The notes below the pieces were generated by a model that saw only the letters and a program-made list of their open reading frames with translations, searched no databases and was not told the origin of the DNA. Of a stretch of 39,424 nt of DNA, positions 1 to 39,424 are shown piece by piece. Position 1 is the stretch's first letter. The number at the start of each line of letters is the position of its first letter. A program made the position numbers and the translations under genes. This stretch comes from Escherichia phage ETEP21B. Where the stretch lies: sequence record OR979722.1; one strand, given 5' to 3'.

Positions 1-145
1 GTGTTACCACTAGATATGGGGCTTAGGGTGACTTAGTGATACTATATGTGGGCCTCTATGTGTCCCTATCTGTAATCACCTAGAGTCACCACCTAGAGTC
101 ACCACCTAGAGTCACCACCTAGAGTCACCACCTAGAGTCACCACC
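1..145. repeat. Left direct terminal repeat (DTR); identical to 39280-39424. True repeat probably extends to about 184 because the right copy is cut by the window end
   Basis: Exact match of window start to window end read by eye; core GTGTCCCTATCTGT resembles the T7 terminal-repeat sequence. Confidence 0.85.
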
Positions 146-184
146 TAGAGTCACCACCTAGATTCACCACCTAGAGTCACCACC
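77..184. repeat. Tandem array of about 8 copies of 13-bp unit CACCTAGAGTCAC (one variant copy CACCTAGATTCAC) at the inner edge of the terminal repeat
   Basis: Head-to-tail perfect copies visible directly in the sequence; same unit repeated at 39356-39424. Confidence 0.9.
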
Positions 185-9642: not shown

Positions 9643-10094
9643 GTAAGGTACAATTCAAACCACGCGCTGTGACAGAAGCAATCTTTGTCCACTGTAGCGC
9701 AACTAAGGCGACCATGAACGTTGGTCTGCGTGAAATCCGTCAGTGGCATAAAGAACAGGGCTGGCTTGATGTAGGCTACCACTTCATTATTCGCCGTGAT
9801 GGTACAATCGAAGAAGGCCGTCCGGTCGATGTCGTTGGGTCTCATGTGAAAGACTGGAACAGTAAGTCAGTCGGTGTGTGTCTCGTTGGTGGTATCGACG
9901 AAAAGGGCAAACACGAAGCTAACTTTACTCCAGCACAGATGCAGTCTCTTAAAGAGAAACTGGCAGACCTGAAAGACCTGTACCCGGATGCTGAAATCAA
10001 AGCGCACCACGATGTCGCACCTAAAGCATGTCCAAGTTTTAACTTGAGTCGCTGGCTGAAGACTGGTGAATTAGTAACAAGTGATTGGGGTTAA
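9639..10094 (+). CDS. 3.5: Lysozyme / N-acetylmuramoyl-L-alanine amidase (also the RNAP inhibitor in T7), 151 aa
   Basis: VQFK.R..T.AIFVHCSATK...NVG.REIRQWHKEQGWLDVGYHFII.RDGT, HEVAPKACPSF match T7 lysozyme. Confidence 0.95.
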   Translation: MSKVQFKPRAVTEAIFVHCSATKATMNVGLREIRQWHKEQGWLDVGYHFIIRRDGTIEEGRPVDVVGSHVKDWNSKSVGVCLVGGIDEKGKHEANFTPAQMQSLKEKLADLKDLYPDAEIKAHHDVAPKACPSFNLSRWLKTGELVTSDWG

Positions 10095-10114
10095 TAGAAC
10101 TCACTATGGGAGGA
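10092..10114 (+). promoter_or_regulatory. Phage RNAP promoter variant (phi3.8-like), TAATAGAACTCACTATGGGAGGA
   Basis: Consensus core; GAAC replaces CGAC. Confidence 0.65.
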
Positions 10115-10164
10115 CCGAAAGGTTTCTCCCTTTGTTCGCTAAAATTGTATAAGGAGTAACCACT

Positions 10165-11974
<1,810 letters not shown>

Positions 11975-13153: not shown

Positions 13154-15268
13154 ATGTTACTATCCGACATCGAAACAAACGGGTTGCTGCACAACGTTAG
13201 TCAATTTCACTGTGCGGTGACTTACGACTACACAACTGACCAGTACATCCGTTACCGACCTGATGACTTTGGGGCGTACATTGATGCACTCGAAGCCGAG
13301 GTTGCTCGTGGTGGTCTCATTGTGTTCCACAACGGTCACAAGTATGACGTTCCTGTTATCGAGAAGCTGGCGAAGCTGATTCTGAATCGTGACGTTAAGT
13401 TCCCGAAAGAGAACGTTTTGGATACCCTCGTGATGTCCCGCTTGATTTACTCTAACATCAAAGACACCGATGCTGGTCTGCTCCGTGCTGGTAAGCTGCC
13501 GGGTAAACGCTTTGGTTCCCACGCTCTGGAGGCTTGGGGTTATCGCTTAGGCGAAATGAAGGGTGAGTACAAGGACGACTTCAAGGCTTCACTGGCTGAG
13601 TCTGGTGAAGAATACGTTGATGGTATGGAATGGCTCCTGTTCAACGAAGACATGATGGAATATAACGTTCAAGACGTTGTAGTCACCAAGGCTCTCTTCG
13701 AGAAACTCTGTAGCAACACATTCTATTTCCCTAACGAGACACCTGCTGGAAGCACAGAAGCAGACCGTTTCTGGAATGGTAGCCTTGAGGCTGTCAAACT
13801 GGAACATGATGCTGCGTGGTTGTTAGCCAAGATGGAACGTAACGGTTTCCCGATTGACGTCAAGTCTCTTGAGAACCTGTACGCAGAACTCGCTGGTCGC
13901 CGTGGTGAGCTACTCGTAGAGTTAACCAATACGTTTGGCTCATGGTACTCCGCTAAAGGCGGTGTGGAAGCATTCAGGCACCCTCGTACCGGAAAGCCAC
14001 TCACTAAGTATCCTCGTGTGAAGTATCCGAAACAGGGTGGCATCTTTAAGAAGCCGAAGAACAAGAAGCAACGTGAAGGTCTGGAACCTTGTGAACTGGA
14101 CACTCGTGATTATGTAGAGGGCGCTCCGTATACGCCTGTAGAGCACGTTGTGTTTAACCCTGCAAGTCGTGACCACATCACCCGTGTGCTTACCAAAGCT
14201 GGATGGGTTCCCGTTGAGTTCACTCCGAGTGGTGCACCAAAGGTAGACGATGAGGTCTTAGAGCACGTTAAGGTAGACGACCCTGATGCACAGCGTTGCA
14301 TTGAGTTGATTAAAGAATACCTTATGATTCAGAAACGTATCGGTCAGGTTGCTGAGGGTGATAACGGCTGGCTCCGAATGATTGGAGACGATGGTCGTAT
14401 TCACGGAAGCGTTAACCCGAACGGTGCGGTAACTGGTCGTGCAACTCATAGTTTCCCTAACGTGACACAGGTGCCTTCCATCCGTGCTGCATATGGCGAA
14501 CCTTGCCGTGCTGCTTTCGGTGCCGAGCACAACATGAAAGACGGTAAGCCAGACCCTTGGATTCAAGTTGGTGTGGATGCGTCCGGCCTTGAGCTACGCT
14601 GCTTGGGTCACTTCATGTATCGCTATGATGAGGGTGAGTACGTTGAGACCATCCTAACTGGTGACATCCATACGAAGAACCAGTTGGCTGCTGGTCTACC
14701 AACTCGTGACAACGCTAAGACGTTTATATATGGGTTCCTCTATGGCGCTGGTGCTGCGAAGATTGGACAGATTGTTGGGGGTACTGCCGAAGACGGTAAG
14801 CGACTCATCAAGAACTTCCTTGAGCAAACTCCGGCTATCGCTGCGTTACGTGAAGCAATCACAGGGACACTCGTCAAGGACTCTAAGTGGGTCGGTGGCG
14901 AACAGAAAGTAACTTGGAAGCGCCGATGGGTTCGTGGGTTGGATGGTCGTAAAGTCCATGTCCGTAGTCCTCATGCTGCGCTGAACACCTTGTTGCAGTC
15001 TGCTGGTGCACTTATTTGTAAACTGTGGATTGTCAAGACAGAAGAGATGCTCCTTGAGATGGGCTATAAGCACGGCTGGGATGGTGACTTCTGCCTCATG
15101 GGGTGGATACACGATGAGCAACAGCTTGCTTGCCGTACTGAAGAGATTGCCAAAGTTGTAATCGAAGTATCTCAACAGGCTATGCGCTGGGTTGGAGACC
15201 ACTTTAACTTCCGGTGCCAACTGGATACTGAAGGAAAGATGGGGCCGAATTGGGCTGTATGCCACTGA
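13154..15268 (+). CDS. 5: DNA polymerase gp5 (family A, with 3'-5' exonuclease), 704 aa
   Basis: Collinear with T7 DNA polymerase (same 704 aa; DIETNGL exo motif, GLIVFHNGHKYDVP, KTFIYGFLYGAG, HDE motif, C-terminal GPNWA.CH). Confidence 0.98.
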   Translation: MLLSDIETNGLLHNVSQFHCAVTYDYTTDQYIRYRPDDFGAYIDALEAEVARGGLIVFHNGHKYDVPVIEKLAKLILNRDVKFPKENVLDTLVMSRLIYSNIKDTDAGLLRAGKLPGKRFGSHALEAWGYRLGEMKGEYKDDFKASLAESGEEYVDGMEWLLFNEDMMEYNVQDVVVTKALFEKLCSNTFYFPNETPAGSTEADRFWNGSLEAVKLEHDAAWLLAKMERNGFPIDVKSLENLYAELAGRRGELLVELTNTFGSWYSAKGGVEAFRHPRTGKPLTKYPRVKYPKQGGIFKKPKNKKQREGLEPCELDTRDYVEGAPYTPVEHVVFNPASRDHITRVLTKAGWVPVEFTPSGAPKVDDEVLEHVKVDDPDAQRCIELIKEYLMIQKRIGQVAEGDNGWLRMIGDDGRIHGSVNPNGAVTGRATHSFPNVTQVPSIRAAYGEPCRAAFGAEHNMKDGKPDPWIQVGVDASGLELRCLGHFMYRYDEGEYVETILTGDIHTKNQLAAGLPTRDNAKTFIYGFLYGAGAAKIGQIVGGTAEDGKRLIKNFLEQTPAIAALREAITGTLVKDSKWVGGEQKVTWKRRWVRGLDGRKVHVRSPHAALNTLLQSAGALICKLWIVKTEEMLLEMGYKHGWDGDFCLMGWIHDEQQLACRTEEIAKVVIEVSQQAMRWVGDHFNFRCQLDTEGKMGPNWAVCH

Positions 15269-32608: not shown

Positions 32609-32631
32609 CAATACGACTCACTATTGGGAAG
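32609..32631 (+). promoter_or_regulatory. Phage RNAP promoter (phi17-like), CAATACGACTCACTATTGGGAAG
   Basis: Consensus match directly after gene 16 stop. Confidence 0.85.
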
Positions 32632-32677: not shown

Positions 32678-34645
32678 ATGGCTAACAAAATTTCCACTGT
32701 GCGTACTTACCCACTTAATGGTGCCGTGAACTTCACAATCACCTTTGAGTATCTGGCCCGTAAGTTCGTGCAAGTAACCCTAATTGGTAAAGACCGTAAG
32801 GAACTGGTACTTAATCAGGACTATCGCTTTACCTCTAAGACGCAAATCACAACCTCTCGTACTTGGACTGCCGCAGATGGCTACCAGATGATTGAGATTC
32901 GTCGATTCACTTCAGCTACTGACCGTCTGGTTGACTTTGCCGATGGCTCTATCCTTCGTGCGTATGACCTGAACATCTCACAGATTCAGACTCTGCACGT
33001 TGCTGAGGAAGCACGAGACCTCACTGCTGATACTATCGGTGTCAACAACGATGGTCACTTAGATGCCCGTGGTCGTAAGATTGTGAACCTTGCGTTCGCT
33101 ACTAATGACTATGATGCTGTCCCTCTGAAGCAGATTAAAGAGCGTGAGACCTCTGCGTGGAATGCTGTTACTAAGGCAAACGAACATGCTGACCGTTCTA
33201 ATCGAGAGGCTAATCGTTCTCGTGATGAGGCTAACCGTGCTCAACGCGAAGCTGACCGTTCAACTCAACAGGCAGGTATCTCTACGGCACAAGCGGTTGA
33301 GTCCAAGAAGCAAGCTGACCGTTCCAACTCTGAGGCTAACCGAGCTAAAGGATATGCTGATAGTATGACCGCAAGTGTCGCTGAGGCCAAGAAGCAAGCT
33401 GACCGTTCCAACTCTGAGGCCAATCGTGCCCGTGATGAGGCCAACCGTGCTGCCGGAGAAGTGACTAAAGCTGCTGCTGAGGTTGCCAAGGCTGCTGCAC
33501 ATGTTGAGACCGCTAAGGGACATGCTGACCGAGCCAACACTGAGGCAAACCGCTCTAAGAGTGAAGCCGACCGTGCAAAGACCGAGGCCGATAAGTTGGG
33601 GAACATGAATGAATTAGCTGAGGCCATCGACAGGGTTGATGCTCCTGATGTTTACTTCAAGAGGAATGTTGTCGCCGGACACAGATTGGAGACTTCTGGA
33701 GGATCACATCTTCACCCTAATGAGATTAAATTGGTTAACAATAAATCTCCAGACCAGCACTTCATTGTACAGGCGTGGGGAACTGGAGACCCTAATGATA
33801 GGTCGCAGGTGTTTGAGTTAAAGGATAACTTGGGTCCGTACGCATTCTATATCCAGCGCCAGAAGAAGACAGACCAAACTTGGCAAATGAGTGTGAACGG
33901 TACTGTTAGCTGCGTATCCATCGAGGCTGGCAAGGGTTTCATCTCTAAGGACCGTACAGGCTCCATTCAGATGAAGACTTGGGGAGGTAGTTGGGGCCAA
34001 TGGACTTCTAATGCTGTTCCTGACATTCAGCACGATATTGAGGCCCAACATGATGCTGCTTATCTTCTGGAGAGGGCTACCATTTGGGGTAAGGAGCATT
34101 TATACGCAAAACAACTGTACAACAATGGCACTGGCGCAAACTTCTTTATCAGACACTATCTCCGTGGGACTTACTTTGACTTCCGCTCTGATGGTACTCT
34201 TATCAGTTCCACCGGATGGAATATCCCGGCAGATGGTAACCTGTACATCAAGAAATATGGAACGTATATTGACGCATGGGTAAACAAGCGCCTAAGCGAA
34301 CATGCCTACAACAAGAGCGAGACAAACAACCTAGTGAATGGTCGATTGACACAAGCCCAAGCTGATGGGCGATACGTCCGTAAGAATGCGGGGTGGACTG
34401 AAGTGTGGAAAGGAAGCGCTGGCGGTGGTACCTCGGTAGGTCTCTCACAGGATGTTCGTTGGAGAACCATCTGGATTCAAACTCAAGGCAGATGGAACCC
34501 TGTTCAGATTGGTGATAATGGTGCTTACTACATCTCGTCGATGGGCGGTTGGTTGCAGTTTACCATCTCGAATAATGGTAGAACATTCCGTAACGATGTG
34601 GATAGAAGCTCTGTTCCTACGAGAATCTTGGTTCAAAACCAATAA
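32678..34645 (+). CDS. 17: Tail fiber protein gp17, 655 aa: conserved N-terminal tail-attachment domain, repetitive Arg/Ala-rich shaft, distinct C-terminal receptor-binding part
   Basis: N-terminal 150 aa collinear with T7 gp17 (FEYLARKFV.VTLIG.DRK, DRLVDF.DGSILRAYDLN..QIQT.HVAEEARDLT.DTIGVNNDGHLDARGR.IVNLA); C-terminus WKGSAGGG.SV..SQD also T7-like; middle differs. Confidence 0.93.
   Translation: MANKISTVRTYPLNGAVNFTITFEYLARKFVQVTLIGKDRKELVLNQDYRFTSKTQITTSRTWTAADGYQMIEIRRFTSATDRLVDFADGSILRAYDLNISQIQTLHVAEEARDLTADTIGVNNDGHLDARGRKIVNLAFATNDYDAVPLKQIKERETSAWNAVTKANEHADRSNREANRSRDEANRAQREADRSTQQAGISTAQAVESKKQADRSNSEANRAKGYADSMTASVAEAKKQADRSNSEANRARDEANRAAGEVTKAAAEVAKAAAHVETAKGHADRANTEANRSKSEADRAKTEADKLGNMNELAEAIDRVDAPDVYFKRNVVAGHRLETSGGSHLHPNEIKLVNNKSPDQHFIVQAWGTGDPNDRSQVFELKDNLGPYAFYIQRQKKTDQTWQMSVNGTVSCVSIEAGKGFISKDRTGSIQMKTWGGSWGQWTSNAVPDIQHDIEAQHDAAYLLERATIWGKEHLYAKQLYNNGTGANFFIRHYLRGTYFDFRSDGTLISSTGWNIPADGNLYIKKYGTYIDAWVNKRLSEHAYNKSETNNLVNGRLTQAQADGRYVRKNAGWTEVWKGSAGGGTSVGLSQDVRWRTIWIQTQGRWNPVQIGDNGAYYISSMGGWLQFTISNNGRTFRNDVDRSSVPTRILVQNQ
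33303..33420 (+). repeat. Two perfect 34-bp direct repeats (CCAAGAAGCAAGCTGACCGTTCCAACTCTGAGGC) 84 bp apart inside gene 17, within a wider degenerate repeat region (about 33180-33600)
   Basis: Exact nucleotide repeat read from sequence; encodes repeated KKQADRSNSEAN blocks. Confidence 0.85.
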
Positions 34646-35698: not shown

Positions 35699-36256
35699 AT
35701 GGCTACTGTAAACTCAAGAACCCGTACCATCTGGACTATCAATGGTCGCTCACCGGACAGCCGGGATATGTACGACCGAAACAATGTGGGCCTTCGTGTT
35801 GGGCGTATCGACATCCCAGCTTCAGAAATGGTCAAGGTAGATGGCTATGACAAGGTTGAATATGTTGTTCAACTGAGTGACGGCACAACCGAGCAACATG
35901 CTACCTTTGAGACCCTGATGTCCACTTGGGGTGGCTCCGTCGAGTCTAAACCGGGTAGTGGGTTCATGACTGTATTTCTGGATGAGCAAAGCTCTGAGCG
36001 TCTCGGTATGGTTCGAATCGACGTATACAAAGAGTGGACTGGTGCTGACCCTGAACCGGAAGGCGGTATGGATTCGCTAGTTAGTGCAACGCTTTCTGCG
36101 TCTGATAGTGCATTTGGTACACAGTTCGTGGACAGCGAAGGAAAGAGCGCTTCCGTTATGTTCCAGCCTAGTAACATCGACGGGGCTGTATCTAAGACAG
36201 ACACCATCAAGGCTCTGGAGAAGCGCATCGCTGCCTTAGAGAAACCTGCCGAGTAA
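35699..36256 (+). CDS. Hypothetical protein, 185 aa, acidic, no recognisable motif; extra gene between spanins and terminase
   Basis: Clean ORF with AAGGAG 8 nt upstream, start overlapping the 18.5 stop (TAACATG); I recall no gene at this position in T7 or T3. Confidence 0.7.
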   Translation: MATVNSRTRTIWTINGRSPDSRDMYDRNNVGLRVGRIDIPASEMVKVDGYDKVEYVVQLSDGTTEQHATFETLMSTWGGSVESKPGSGFMTVFLDEQSSERLGMVRIDVYKEWTGADPEPEGGMDSLVSATLSASDSAFGTQFVDSEGKSASVMFQPSNIDGAVSKTDTIKALEKRIAALEKPAE

Positions 36257-38571: not shown

Positions 38572-38594
38572 TAATACGACTCACTATTGGGAAG
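38572..38594 (+). promoter_or_regulatory. Phage RNAP promoter (phiOR-like), TAATACGACTCACTATTGGGAAG
   Basis: Consensus match near the right end, as phiOR in T7. Confidence 0.85.
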
Positions 38595-38750
38595 GGCCCC
38601 CTAAGACAACTTAAAGACACTTAAAGACTGCATATGCAAAGTGCATACTTAGTGACTACTCTTAGAGACCATTACAGTGAGGGATGATGGTAATAGTAAT
38701 TACATCCCTACTATCAGTGTAACCATCAAGTATAACAAGGAGGACGCTCT

Positions 38751-38906
38751 ATGCGCTTACTATCCGTGCTCAAGACACTGGCAACGCATCGAGTGACTTA
38801 CAAATTTCTCGTTGTACTTGCTGCTTCCATTGGTCTCGCATCTAGTGCTGAACACATCGGTGAACTGGAGACTCTGCTTTGTTCTCTACTCACTTGTGTT
38901 CCTTAG
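38751..38906 (+). CDS. 19.5: gp19.5-like small hydrophobic protein, 51 aa (not in ORF track)
   Basis: AAGGAGGA 6 nt upstream of ATG; last gene before the right end, as T7 gene 19.5. Confidence 0.55.
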   Translation: MRLLSVLKTLATHRVTYKFLVVLAASIGLASSAEHIGELETLLCSLLTCVP

Positions 38907-39279
38907 ACTGCTCATCGGCGCTTAGTGCGCTCTTAGTGATAATGGTCGATATACATCTTCCCTATTATCACTGTAAGAAGTCAACTCTAAGAGTAACCCT
39001 TATGTACCCTATGGTCTACAGGGTCTCTTAGGGTCTCTCACGTAGTCTCACCGCTATGCTCCTGCGTAGCACCTTATGATAGCCACCCTGTGGTGAACCT
39101 TATGAGACTTGATGTACCCTTTAAGAATCCTACAGAAAATCTGAGTGGGTATCTCATAGTTCATACAAAGTGTTTCCCCCCCCTATGGCCTCCTTCAGTC
39201 CACTCAAAGAGTGCCACCCTATGGTAACTTATGGTTTACTTAATGTCAATCCTTATATGTGACATTGGGTTAACTCTAG

Positions 39280-39424
39280 GTGTTACCACTAGATATGGGG
39301 CTTAGGGTGACTTAGTGATACTATATGTGGGCCTCTATGTGTCCCTATCTGTAATCACCTAGAGTCACCACCTAGAGTCACCACCTAGAGTCACCACCTA
39401 GAGTCACCACCTAGAGTCACCACC
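39280..39424. repeat. Right direct terminal repeat (truncated by window end), includes at least 5 copies of the 13-bp tandem unit from 39356
   Basis: Exact identity to 1-145. Confidence 0.85.

What the first reader, a model, noticed from the sequence alone, without database searches (positions are those of the whole stretch)
33180..33600. Repetitive, recombinogenic shaft in the tail fiber gene and a mosaic receptor-binding region
Gene 17 contains two perfect 34-bp direct repeats 84 bp apart (33303-33336 and 33387-33420) plus further degenerate copies (for example CGTGATGAGGCTAACCGTGC at about 33221 and 33431), encoding reiterated ADRSNxEANR blocks. The N-terminal 150 aa and the extreme C-terminus are T7-like, but the middle and distal parts differ. 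Slippage between the repeats would change fiber length, and the domain mosaic suggests host-range switching by recombination.
Basis: seen in the sequence. Interest (0 to 1): 0.5.

Follow-up and report, generated by a model that had tools for sequence, protein, structure and literature searches.

The report
Coiled-coil repeats in T7-like tail fibre
The repeats are real, but they are the DNA footprint of the 23-heptad coiled-coil rod of an already published T7-like tail fibre (phage ETEP21B), whose length is constant in sequenced relatives while the module behind it is swapped by recombination: an ordinary, largely known feature.

Summary
Two perfect 34-bp copies lie at 33303-33336 and 33387-33420, inside a 21-nt-periodic stretch of gene 17 (32678-34645, 655 aa). 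The window is the complete genome of Escherichia phage vB_EcoP_ETEP21B, a Berlinvirus. Its fibre was published in 2024 as adaptor, coiled coil, pyramid and tip.

The repeats encode 23 uninterrupted heptads (aa 160-320). These form the alpha-helical proximal rod and are built from four older multi-heptad blocks of 6, 4, 6 and 6 heptads.

The mosaic reading holds for the family. The same N-domain and rod are joined to at least nine unrelated distal modules, with breakpoints at the rod end (~33612) and near 34190. It does not hold for this gene, which is collinear over its full length with BA14, PhiV-1 and CarlSpitteler gp17 (90-94.5% aa). The tip is conserved and T7-like; the part that varies is the middle, pyramid region.

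The slippage idea is weakly supported. None of 66 sequenced phages with this rod has a length change, and 45 homologous proteins share its length. One metagenomic relative lacks exactly one heptad between 14-nt repeats. Across the wider family rod lengths differ mostly by whole heptads; T7 is six shorter.

No RNA element or promoter explains the region. Verdict: already known and ordinary; low interest.

The parts
32609..32631 (+). phage RNA-polymerase promoter phi17 upstream of gene 17
   Evidence: CAATACGACTCACTATTGGGAAG is identical to the annotated phi17 promoter of BA14. No other phage-promoter match lies inside gene 17.
32678..34645 (+). gene 17, tail fibre protein gp17 (655 aa, ATG start, stop included)
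   Evidence: collinear with the annotated gp17 of PhiV-1, BA14 and CarlSpitteler; the exact protein is UniRef A0AAU6PXS7, tail fibre protein of Escherichia phage ETEP21B.
32678..33139 (+). N-terminal tail-attachment (adaptor) domain, aa 1-154
   Evidence: PF03906 Phage_T7_tail, E 7e-49. T7 gp17 N-terminal cryo-EM chains (7boz, 8e4g, 8dsp) match.
33155..33637 (+). proximal rod: 23 uninterrupted heptads (aa 160-320), predicted alpha-helical coiled coil
   Evidence: identity at lag 7 is 0.34 against 0.11 in shuffles (z = 10). Position 1 is A/S in 21 of 23 heptads and position 5 is A/V in 21 of 23. AlphaFold2 gives one continuous helix, aa 151-316. T7 has 17 heptads in the same register.
33167..33292 (+). 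super-unit A (6 heptads, aa 164-205: VTKANEH ADRSNRE ANRSRDE ANRAQRE ADRSTQQ AGISTAQ)
   Evidence: families D2 and D3.
33293..33376 (+). super-unit B (4 heptads, aa 206-233), carries the first 34-mer
33377..33502 (+). super-unit C (6 heptads, aa 234-275), carries the second 34-mer
   Evidence: Its head is replaced by an AKGH-type head in Yepe2 and PYps50T.
33503..33628 (+). super-unit D (6 heptads, aa 276-317), ends in the family-wide conserved EADKLGNMNxLAxAI motif
33303..33336 (+). perfect 34-bp direct repeat, copy 1
33387..33420 (+). perfect 34-bp direct repeat, copy 2
   Evidence: An exact B-C run of 22-42 nt is also present in 13 of 15 relatives.
33416..33450 (+). two 14-nt repeats (GAGGCCAAYCGTGC at 33416-33429 and 33437-33450) 21 nt apart; they flank the heptad ARDEANR that is absent from metagenomic relative P0034
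33262..33510 (+). nucleotide-identity island shared by 13 of 15 relatives at 97-100%, including Teseptimavirus-like SYGE1, EG1 and EmilieLinder
   Evidence: Against five genomes it ranks 51st of 1668 windows of 240 nt, so it is high but not unique.
33638..34190 (+). variable middle (pyramid-region) module, aa ~321-505; type shared only with PhiV-1, BA14 and CarlSpitteler (second half also with FE44, SYGE1, Yepe2)
   Evidence: There is no T7 or PDB match by sequence. The AlphaFold2 model is beta-rich.
34191..34645 (+). conserved C-terminal part: GWNIPADGNLYIKKYG segment, helical neck, and T7-like tip domain (aa ~573-655)
   Evidence: 4a0t/4a0u match aa 555-655, E 1e-23. Foldseek against 4a0t/4a0u gives TM(target) 0.6 over about 220 columns.

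Best explanation
The repeated DNA encodes the alpha-helical coiled-coil proximal rod of the trimeric gp17 tail fibre of a T7-like podovirus, Berlinvirus ETEP21B.

The rod is 23 heptads of the form (A/S)-x-x-(E/Q)-(A/V)-(D/N)-(R/K). It arose by old internal duplications of multi-heptad blocks (6-4-6-6 heptads), so DNA similarity recurs at multiples of 21 nt.

The perfect 34-mer is the best-preserved part of the block B / block C pair. It is most likely a short intragenic gene-conversion tract laid over an older duplication (inferred). It is inherited by most members of the group and is not special to this phage.

Functionally the rod is a spacer of fixed length, about 24 nm against about 18 nm in T7, between the tail-binding N-domain and the distal half-fibre.

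Host range evolves by homologous recombination in conserved sequence at three junctions: the end of the N-domain (~33010-33100), the end of the rod (~33600-33625) and the start of the conserved C-terminal neck and tip (~34190-34215). This exchanges the middle module. Changes in repeat number are not the route.

Shown: the repeats, the heptad register, the helix prediction, the collinearity, the mosaic pattern and the length constancy. Inferred: trimeric coiled coil (by homology with T7), the conversion origin of the 34-mer, and the role of the junctions in exchange.
For: - Repeats and 21-nt spacing.
- 23 uninterrupted heptads, z = 10 at lag 7.
- Single helix aa 151-316 in the AlphaFold2 model.
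- The T7 rod aligns in the same register with 17 heptads. T7's proximal region is described as a triple coiled coil (bioRxiv 10.1101/2025.10.22.683886).
- The published AlphaFold-multimer model of this very protein has adaptor, flexible coiled coil, pyramid and tip (PMC11267873).
- The rod has the same length in 45 of 46 related proteins with this rod type and in 66 of 66 phage records.
- Mosaic breakpoints lie at the rod end and near 34190, with at least 9 distal module clusters on the same N-domain plus rod.
- The 34-mer core has 0 of 10 codons differing, while the flanking repeat codons differ mainly at synonymous sites.
- Yepe2 and PYps50T carry a different head in block C, and P0034 a different head in block B.
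- No Rfam hit, no promoter or terminator, and no RNA structure (z = +1.5) in the region.
Against: - The core positions are small or polar (Ala, Ser, Val), which is unusual for a stable trimeric coiled coil. No experimental structure of this rod exists.
- My AlphaFold2 model is a monomer with pLDDT of only about 60-70 in the rod.
- The conversion origin of the 34-mer is not proven. Where one copy has mutated in a lineage (285P, PhiV-1, PZJ0206, CarlSpitteler, EG1) the change was not copied to the other copy, so there is no sign of ongoing homogenisation.
- The identity island at 33262-33510 has no specific explanation beyond recent horizontal spread.
Confidence: 0.85

Rival explanations
1. The repeats act as a length-switching (contingency-type) locus. 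Misalignment between the 34-mers (minus or plus 84 nt, 4 heptads) or between the 21-nt-spaced 14-mers (plus or minus 1 heptad) regularly produces in-frame fibre-length variants, and these are selected on hosts with different surface-glycan thickness.
For: - All repeat spacings are multiples of 21 nt, so every such event stays in frame and in heptad register.
- One natural relative, P0034 on Logan contig L024, has this rod minus exactly one heptad, bounded by the 14-nt repeats.
- Across 122 gp17 homologues, 84 differ from this rod by a multiple of 7 residues. T7 is 42 aa shorter, which equals one 6-heptad block. These counts are not phylogenetically independent.
- From my own knowledge, not checked here: in T7, deletion between direct repeats rises steeply with repeat length (Pierce, Kong and Masker 1991). 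A 34-bp repeat should therefore delete at a measurable rate.
Against: - No indel in this rod in 66 phage records or in 45 protein clusters.
- No 84-nt deletion junction in IMG/VR or JGI metagenome contigs. Only four known isolates matched the pattern.
- The copies are not head-to-tail tandem repeats and TRF finds none.
- The 34-mer has persisted in most lineages without deletion, which points to purifying selection on length.
Confidence: 0.1
2. The near-identity of 33262-33510 across phages reflects a nucleotide-level functional element (RNA structure, internal promoter or terminator, or an overlapping or antisense gene) embedded in the rod-coding sequence.
For: - Thirteen of 15 relatives are 97-100% identical here while the flanks are 75-90%.
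- Long antisense and +2-frame ORFs overlap the region: 33265-33627 on the minus strand (120 aa) and 33144-33368 on the plus strand (74 aa).
Against: - No Rfam family matches.
- The RNA fold is weaker than shuffles (z = +1.46).
- There is no phage-promoter match inside gene 17, and sigma-70 promoter and terminator matches are at or below chance.
- Antisense ORFs are expected in GCN/GAN/CGN-rich periodic coding sequence, and T7-like phages transcribe one strand only (my own knowledge).
- The island ranks 51st of 1668 windows, so similar islands exist in genes 3.5, 5 and 19.
- Yepe2 and PYps50T differ freely within it.
Confidence: 0.03
3. Chance or low-complexity artefact: the repeats are only compositional bias of an Ala/Arg/Glu/Asn-rich segment.
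For: The rod is compositionally biased, with 40 Ala among 161 residues. A rod-only protein search returned nothing, probably because of bias filtering.
Against: A 34-nt exact match has an expectation of about 2.6e-12. The lag-7 periodicity is 10 sd above shuffles of the same composition.
Confidence: 0.01

Closest known systems
Tail fibre (ORF38, gp17) of Escherichia phage vB_EcoP_ETEP21B as published (Appl Environ Microbiol 2024, PMC11267873)
   Same: It is the same molecule. The exact protein sequence matches, and so do the genome length (39,424 bp) and GC content (49.1%). The paper describes adaptor, flexible coiled coil, pyramid and tip. [quoted passage not shown]
   Different: The paper does not mention the DNA repeats, the heptad or block organisation, the mosaic relationships or recombination.
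Bacteriophage T7 gp17 (PDB 4A0T/4A0U tip and pyramid; 7BOZ, 8DSP, 8E4G N-terminal part)
   Same: The architecture is the same: a PF03906 N-domain, a heptad coiled-coil rod ending in EADKLxNxNxLAxAIDxV, and a C-terminal tip beta-sandwich.
   Different: The rod here has 23 heptads of the ADR/ANR type, against 17 in T7 with aromatic residues (FRNEAET and similar). The middle region aa 339-555 has no sequence match. About 23 extra residues form a helical neck before the tip. Overall identity is 36%.
BA14 / PhiV-1 / CarlSpitteler (Bas68) gp17, Berlinvirus fibre type
   Same: Collinear over the full length, 655 aa each, 90-94.5% aa identity, with the same rod and the same middle module.
   Different: Nucleotide identity is patchy, 72-100% per 60 nt. 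The first 935 nt are closest to nasanit and 285P (96-98%), which carry a different middle module. A short patch at about 33878-33940 is only 38-63% identical to CarlSpitteler.
Published observation on PYps50T versus Yep-phi tail fibres (Front Microbiol 2022, PMC8762354)
   Same: The authors state that the first 320 aa are very similar and the next ~180 aa diverge. They also note repetitive sequences close to the transition point that might have caused the break. This is the same gene family and the same idea as the finding.
   Different: It was made on other phages, at dot-plot level, without heptad or block analysis or a test for length variants.
Modular tail-fibre evolution by recombination at conserved segments or short repeats (T3 as a T7/phiYeO3-12 recombinant; T4 gp37 His-box duplications)
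   Same: A constant virion-attachment part is combined with exchangeable distal modules, and short conserved sequences serve as crossover sites.
   Different: These comparisons rest on my own knowledge (Pajunen et al. 2002; Tetart et al. 1996) and were not tested here. In T4 the duplications lie in the adhesin itself and do change host range. Here the repeats lie in the spacer rod and no host-range effect is known.

Membership tests
T7-type gp17 tail fibre (Autographiviridae, Studiervirinae) | N-terminal Phage_T7_tail domain (PF03906) that docks on the gp11/gp12 tail | tested here: met
   E 7e-49, aa 1-154; 7boz, 8e4g and 8dsp match aa 1-188.
T7-type gp17 tail fibre (Autographiviridae, Studiervirinae) | Gene position between gene 16 and the gene 17.5 holin, behind a phage-polymerase promoter phi17 | tested here: met
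   One search gives the ORF order. Searches give the annotations of relatives. One search places the promoter at 32609-32631.
T7-type gp17 tail fibre (Autographiviridae, Studiervirinae) | Heptad-periodic alpha-helical proximal rod | tested here: met
   23 heptads, z = 10; helix aa 151-316; same register as T7.
T7-type gp17 tail fibre (Autographiviridae, Studiervirinae) | C-terminal pyramid and tip fold as in PDB 4A0T | tested here: met
   sequence match aa 555-655, E 1e-23. Foldseek E 9e-14, TM(target) 0.6 over about 220 columns. The model is a monomer of moderate confidence.
T7-type gp17 tail fibre (Autographiviridae, Studiervirinae) | Homotrimer, six fibres per virion | not testable with these tools
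   Only monomer prediction was available. A multimer model is reported in PMC11267873.
BA14-type Berlinvirus fibre | Full-length collinearity, including the middle module aa 321-505 | tested here: met
   PhiV-1 94.5%, BA14 93% and CarlSpitteler 90% aa, all 655 aa.
Repeat-number-variable (slippage/contingency) locus | Head-to-tail tandem repeats of high identity | tested here: not met
   TRF finds none. The copies are interspersed and 64-92% alike, apart from the 34-nt core.
Repeat-number-variable (slippage/contingency) locus | Copy-number polymorphism among close relatives or within populations | tested here: inconclusive
   No indel in 66 phage records and the same rod length in 45 homologous proteins. 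One metagenomic relative is one heptad shorter. Within-population variation could not be tested.

The most novel reading that the evidence does not exclude
The in-register repeats (34-mers 84 nt apart, 14-mers 21 nt apart) may continuously seed a minority of fibre-length variants in every lysate, shorter or longer by 4 heptads or by 1 heptad. Rod length would then tune how far the tip reaches through O-antigen. That could contribute to ETEP21B's unusual ability to infect smooth O149 strains. Separately, the near-identical 250-nt rod segment shared across genera may serve as the docking homology for swapping distal modules.
Probability: 0.1. Interest if true: 0.5.

Novelty: already known. Interest (0 to 1): 0.15.

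Why it matters
It matters little beyond this phage. It gives a precise anatomy (heptads, blocks, junction coordinates) of a fibre that is a candidate for veterinary phage therapy against porcine ETEC.

For engineering, it shows that the rod is a length-conserved adaptor and marks three natural junctions where modules can be swapped: about 33010-33100, 33600-33625 and 34190-34215.

If the length-variant idea were true, it would give a simple, testable route by which T7-like phages adjust fibre reach. The comparative data argue that such variants are selected against.

Tried and rejected
1. A protein search with the rod alone returned no hit, probably because of composition filtering. The full-length query was used instead.
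2. TRF found no tandem repeat, so the region was not treated as a tandem array.
3. I suspected that the identity island 33262-33510 was exceptional. The genome-wide control puts it at rank 51 of 1668, behind islands in genes 3.5, 5 and 19, so I dropped it as a special element.
4. RNA or regulatory element in the rod: no Rfam hit, fold z = +1.46, no phage promoter, no excess of sigma-70 promoters or terminators.
5. Ongoing concerted evolution of the two 34-mers: rejected as a current process, because single-copy mutations in 285P, PhiV-1, PZJ0206, CarlSpitteler and EG1 are not homogenised. An old conversion event remains plausible.
6. A search for an 84-nt deletion junction or further wild-type loci found four known isolates in IMG/VR and nothing in JGI metagenomes, which is uninformative.
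7. Clustering of distal modules chains the four Berlinvirus middle types into one cluster through shared sub-blocks. The count of nine clusters is therefore a lower bound.
8. I could not retrieve Pierce, Kong and Masker 1991 on T7 deletion rate against repeat length. That point rests on memory.
Full report
**Identity of the window.**
- The window is a complete T7-like genome. It carries a perfect 145-bp terminal repeat (1-145 = 39280-39424) and 13 T7-type phage promoters.
- It is about 90-93% identical to Berlinvirus genomes such as PhiV-1, BA14, 285P and FE44.
- The gene 17 product is, residue for residue, the tail fibre protein of Escherichia phage ETEP21B (UniRef A0AAU6PXS7).
- The paper describing that phage gives a genome of 39,424 bp and 49.1% GC, exactly as here.

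**The observation.**
- Gene 17 is 32678-34645 (+), 655 aa.
- The two 34-mers at 33303-33336 and 33387-33420 are identical and cannot be extended. By chance about 3e-12 such pairs are expected, and they are the longest exact repeat outside the terminal-repeat zone.
- The repeat finder shows ten copies of a 23-nt unit and longer 48-nt and 76-nt families. All spacings are multiples of 21 nt.
- TRF reports nothing, because the copies are too divergent and are not strictly tandem.

**What the repeats encode.**
- From aa 160 to 320 (33155-33637) the protein reads as 23 heptads with no stutter. Position 1 is Ala or Ser in 21 of 23, position 5 is Ala or Val in 21 of 23, position 4 is mostly Glu or Gln, and position 7 is mostly Arg or Lys.
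- Residue identity at lag 7 is 0.34, against 0.11 +/- 0.02 in shuffles.
- AlphaFold2 (monomer, 40-sequence alignment) gives one uninterrupted helix for aa 151-316.
- T7 gp17 aligns in the same register with 17 heptads and ends in the same EADKLxNxNxLAxAIDxV motif. T7's proximal half-fibre is described as a triple coiled coil.
- The ETEP21B paper describes a flexible coiled-coil region in its multimer model.
- At about 0.148 nm per residue the rod is roughly 24 nm, against 18 nm in T7 (inference).
- At a higher level the rod consists of four blocks that each begin x-x-x-(A/S)-(K/N)-x-(H/Q) ADRxNxE ANRxxxE:
  - A: 33167-33292, 6 heptads
  - B: 33293-33376, 4 heptads
  - C: 33377-33502, 6 heptads
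  - D: 33503-33628, 6 heptads
- This block structure explains the 84, 126 and 210-nt spacings.

**Origin of the perfect 34-mer.**
- Blocks B and C share 48 nt at 92% identity. The ten central codons are identical, while the flanking repeat codons differ mainly at synonymous sites. That is the pattern expected of a short conversion tract over an older duplication (inference).
- The tract is not specific to this phage. An exact B-C run of 22-42 nt is present in 13 of 15 relatives.
- It is absent in Yepe2 and PYps50T, whose block C has an AKGH-type head like block D. The metagenomic relative P0034 has the AKGH-type head in block B.
- Mutations that hit one copy in single lineages were not transferred to the other copy, so there is no sign of continuing homogenisation.

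**Does rod length vary?**
- Among 16 codon-aligned genes the rod has no indel.
- Among 67 phage records that match the rod, 66 cover it in one piece. In every row listed the query span equals the record span.
- Among 122 homologous proteins with both anchor motifs, 45 have exactly this rod length.
- One protein, P0034 (Logan contig, locus L024), has this rod minus exactly one heptad (ARDEANR). At DNA level this is a clean 21-nt gap between two 14-nt repeats at 33416-33429 and 33437-33450.
- In the wider family, rod lengths fall into classes. Of the 122, 84 differ from this one by a multiple of seven residues. T7 and T3 are 42 aa shorter, the size of one 6-heptad block. These counts are not phylogenetically independent.
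- No relative has the 84-nt deletion predicted from the 34-mers. Pattern scans of IMG/VR and JGI metagenomes added nothing.
- Whole-heptad changes therefore happen over evolutionary time, plausibly through such repeats. Within this fibre type, length is held constant.

**Mosaicism.**
- Sliding-window identity and the alignments show three recurrent junctions:
  1. SYGE1, EG1 and EmilieLinder have a T7-like N-domain (50-80% identity) but switch to a Berlinvirus-type rod at about 33010-33100.
  2. nasanit and 285P are 96-98% identical to the window up to about 33612, the end of ADKLGNMN, and then become unalignable.
  3. All types converge again at about 34190 (GWNIPADGNLYIKKYG) and share the neck and tip.
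- Between junctions 2 and 3 the Berlinviruses carry at least four mutually unalignable middle modules.
- Taking all proteins with this rod, the distal parts fall into at least nine clusters. Precomputed Pfam hits among the homologues include PF13884 and PF07484.
- The window's own gene is collinear with PhiV-1, BA14 and CarlSpitteler. It is a patchwork only at fine scale.
- The tip (aa ~573-655) matches T7's 4A0T tip by sequence. By fold the match extends over about 220 residues.
- The variable part is therefore the middle, pyramid region. The ETEP21B authors propose that region as a possible second receptor-binding site.

**Alternatives at the nucleic-acid level.**
- The 250 nt around the 34-mers (33262-33510) are 97-100% identical in 13 of 15 relatives. 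In a five-genome control this window ranks only 51st of 1668.
- There is no Rfam family, no stable RNA fold (z = +1.46), no phage promoter and no excess of host promoter or terminator motifs.
- The antisense ORFs are the expected by-product of periodic GCN/GAN/CGN codons.

**Prior knowledge.**
- The architecture of this exact fibre is published (PMC11267873), although that paper is silent on repeats and mosaicism.
- For close relatives, Hammerl et al. (PMC8762354) wrote that the first 320 aa are similar and the next ~180 diverge. They also noted repetitive sequences near the transition that might have caused the break.
- The finding therefore restates known features. What this analysis adds is the heptad and block map, the junction coordinates, the demonstration of length constancy, and one natural single-heptad variant.

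**Verdict.** The feature is an ordinary, already described coiled-coil rod plus modular distal region of a T7-like tail fibre. Interest is low.

Noticed in passing
window 1-162 and 39280-39424: A perfect 145-bp terminal direct repeat. It contains a 13-bp tandem array (CACCTAGAGTCAC, about 6.6 copies at 77-162) that runs past the end of the left repeat and is repeated at 39356-39424. It probably corresponds to the concatemer-junction arrays of T7-like phages.
   Followed up: partly
window 33878-33940: A short patch of the middle module (aa ~400-425, VSCVSIEAGKGFISKDRTGSIQM) is only 38-63% identical to CarlSpitteler, while both flanks are 93-98% identical. This may be a hypervariable surface loop in the proposed second receptor-binding region.
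   Followed up: no
window 34300-34390 versus EG1 (L009), T7 (L015) and T3 (L016): Berlinvirus-type fibres have about 23 extra residues (SEHAYNKSETNNLVNGRLTQAQADGRY) between the conserved GNLYIKKYG segment and the tip. These are absent in T7 and T3, and EG1 has a 13-aa gap there. AlphaFold2 models this stretch poorly (pLDDT below 50 for aa 542-566).
   Followed up: no
window 35699-36256 (+): A 185-aa ORF between gene 18.5 and gene 19. Its counterparts are annotated only as unknown product or hypothetical protein in BA14, FE44 and PhiV-1 (558 bp in each). Its function is unknown.
   Followed up: no
window ~10081-10360, ~14181-14600, ~38581-38980: These are the most conserved 240-nt windows against five Berlinvirus genomes (minimum identity 0.96-0.975). 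They lie above the rod island and, by the relatives' annotation, fall in the regions of genes 3.5, 5 and 19.
   Followed up: no
L001 / L019 (PhiV-1 MT542512) gene 17, C-terminal part: The deposited PhiV-1 gp17 translates with two X residues (NDXDRXSVP), meaning ambiguous bases in the record. Identity figures near the 3' end of the gene are therefore slightly uncertain.
   Followed up: no
L024 3295-3741 and L017 3310-3837: Relatives with the same N-domain and rod but an EmilieLinder-type distal module carry an extra small gene directly after gene 17, where the window has the holin gene 17.5. It is annotated as a tail fibre assembly protein in EmilieLinder. The swapped module thus brings its own chaperone.
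   Followed up: no
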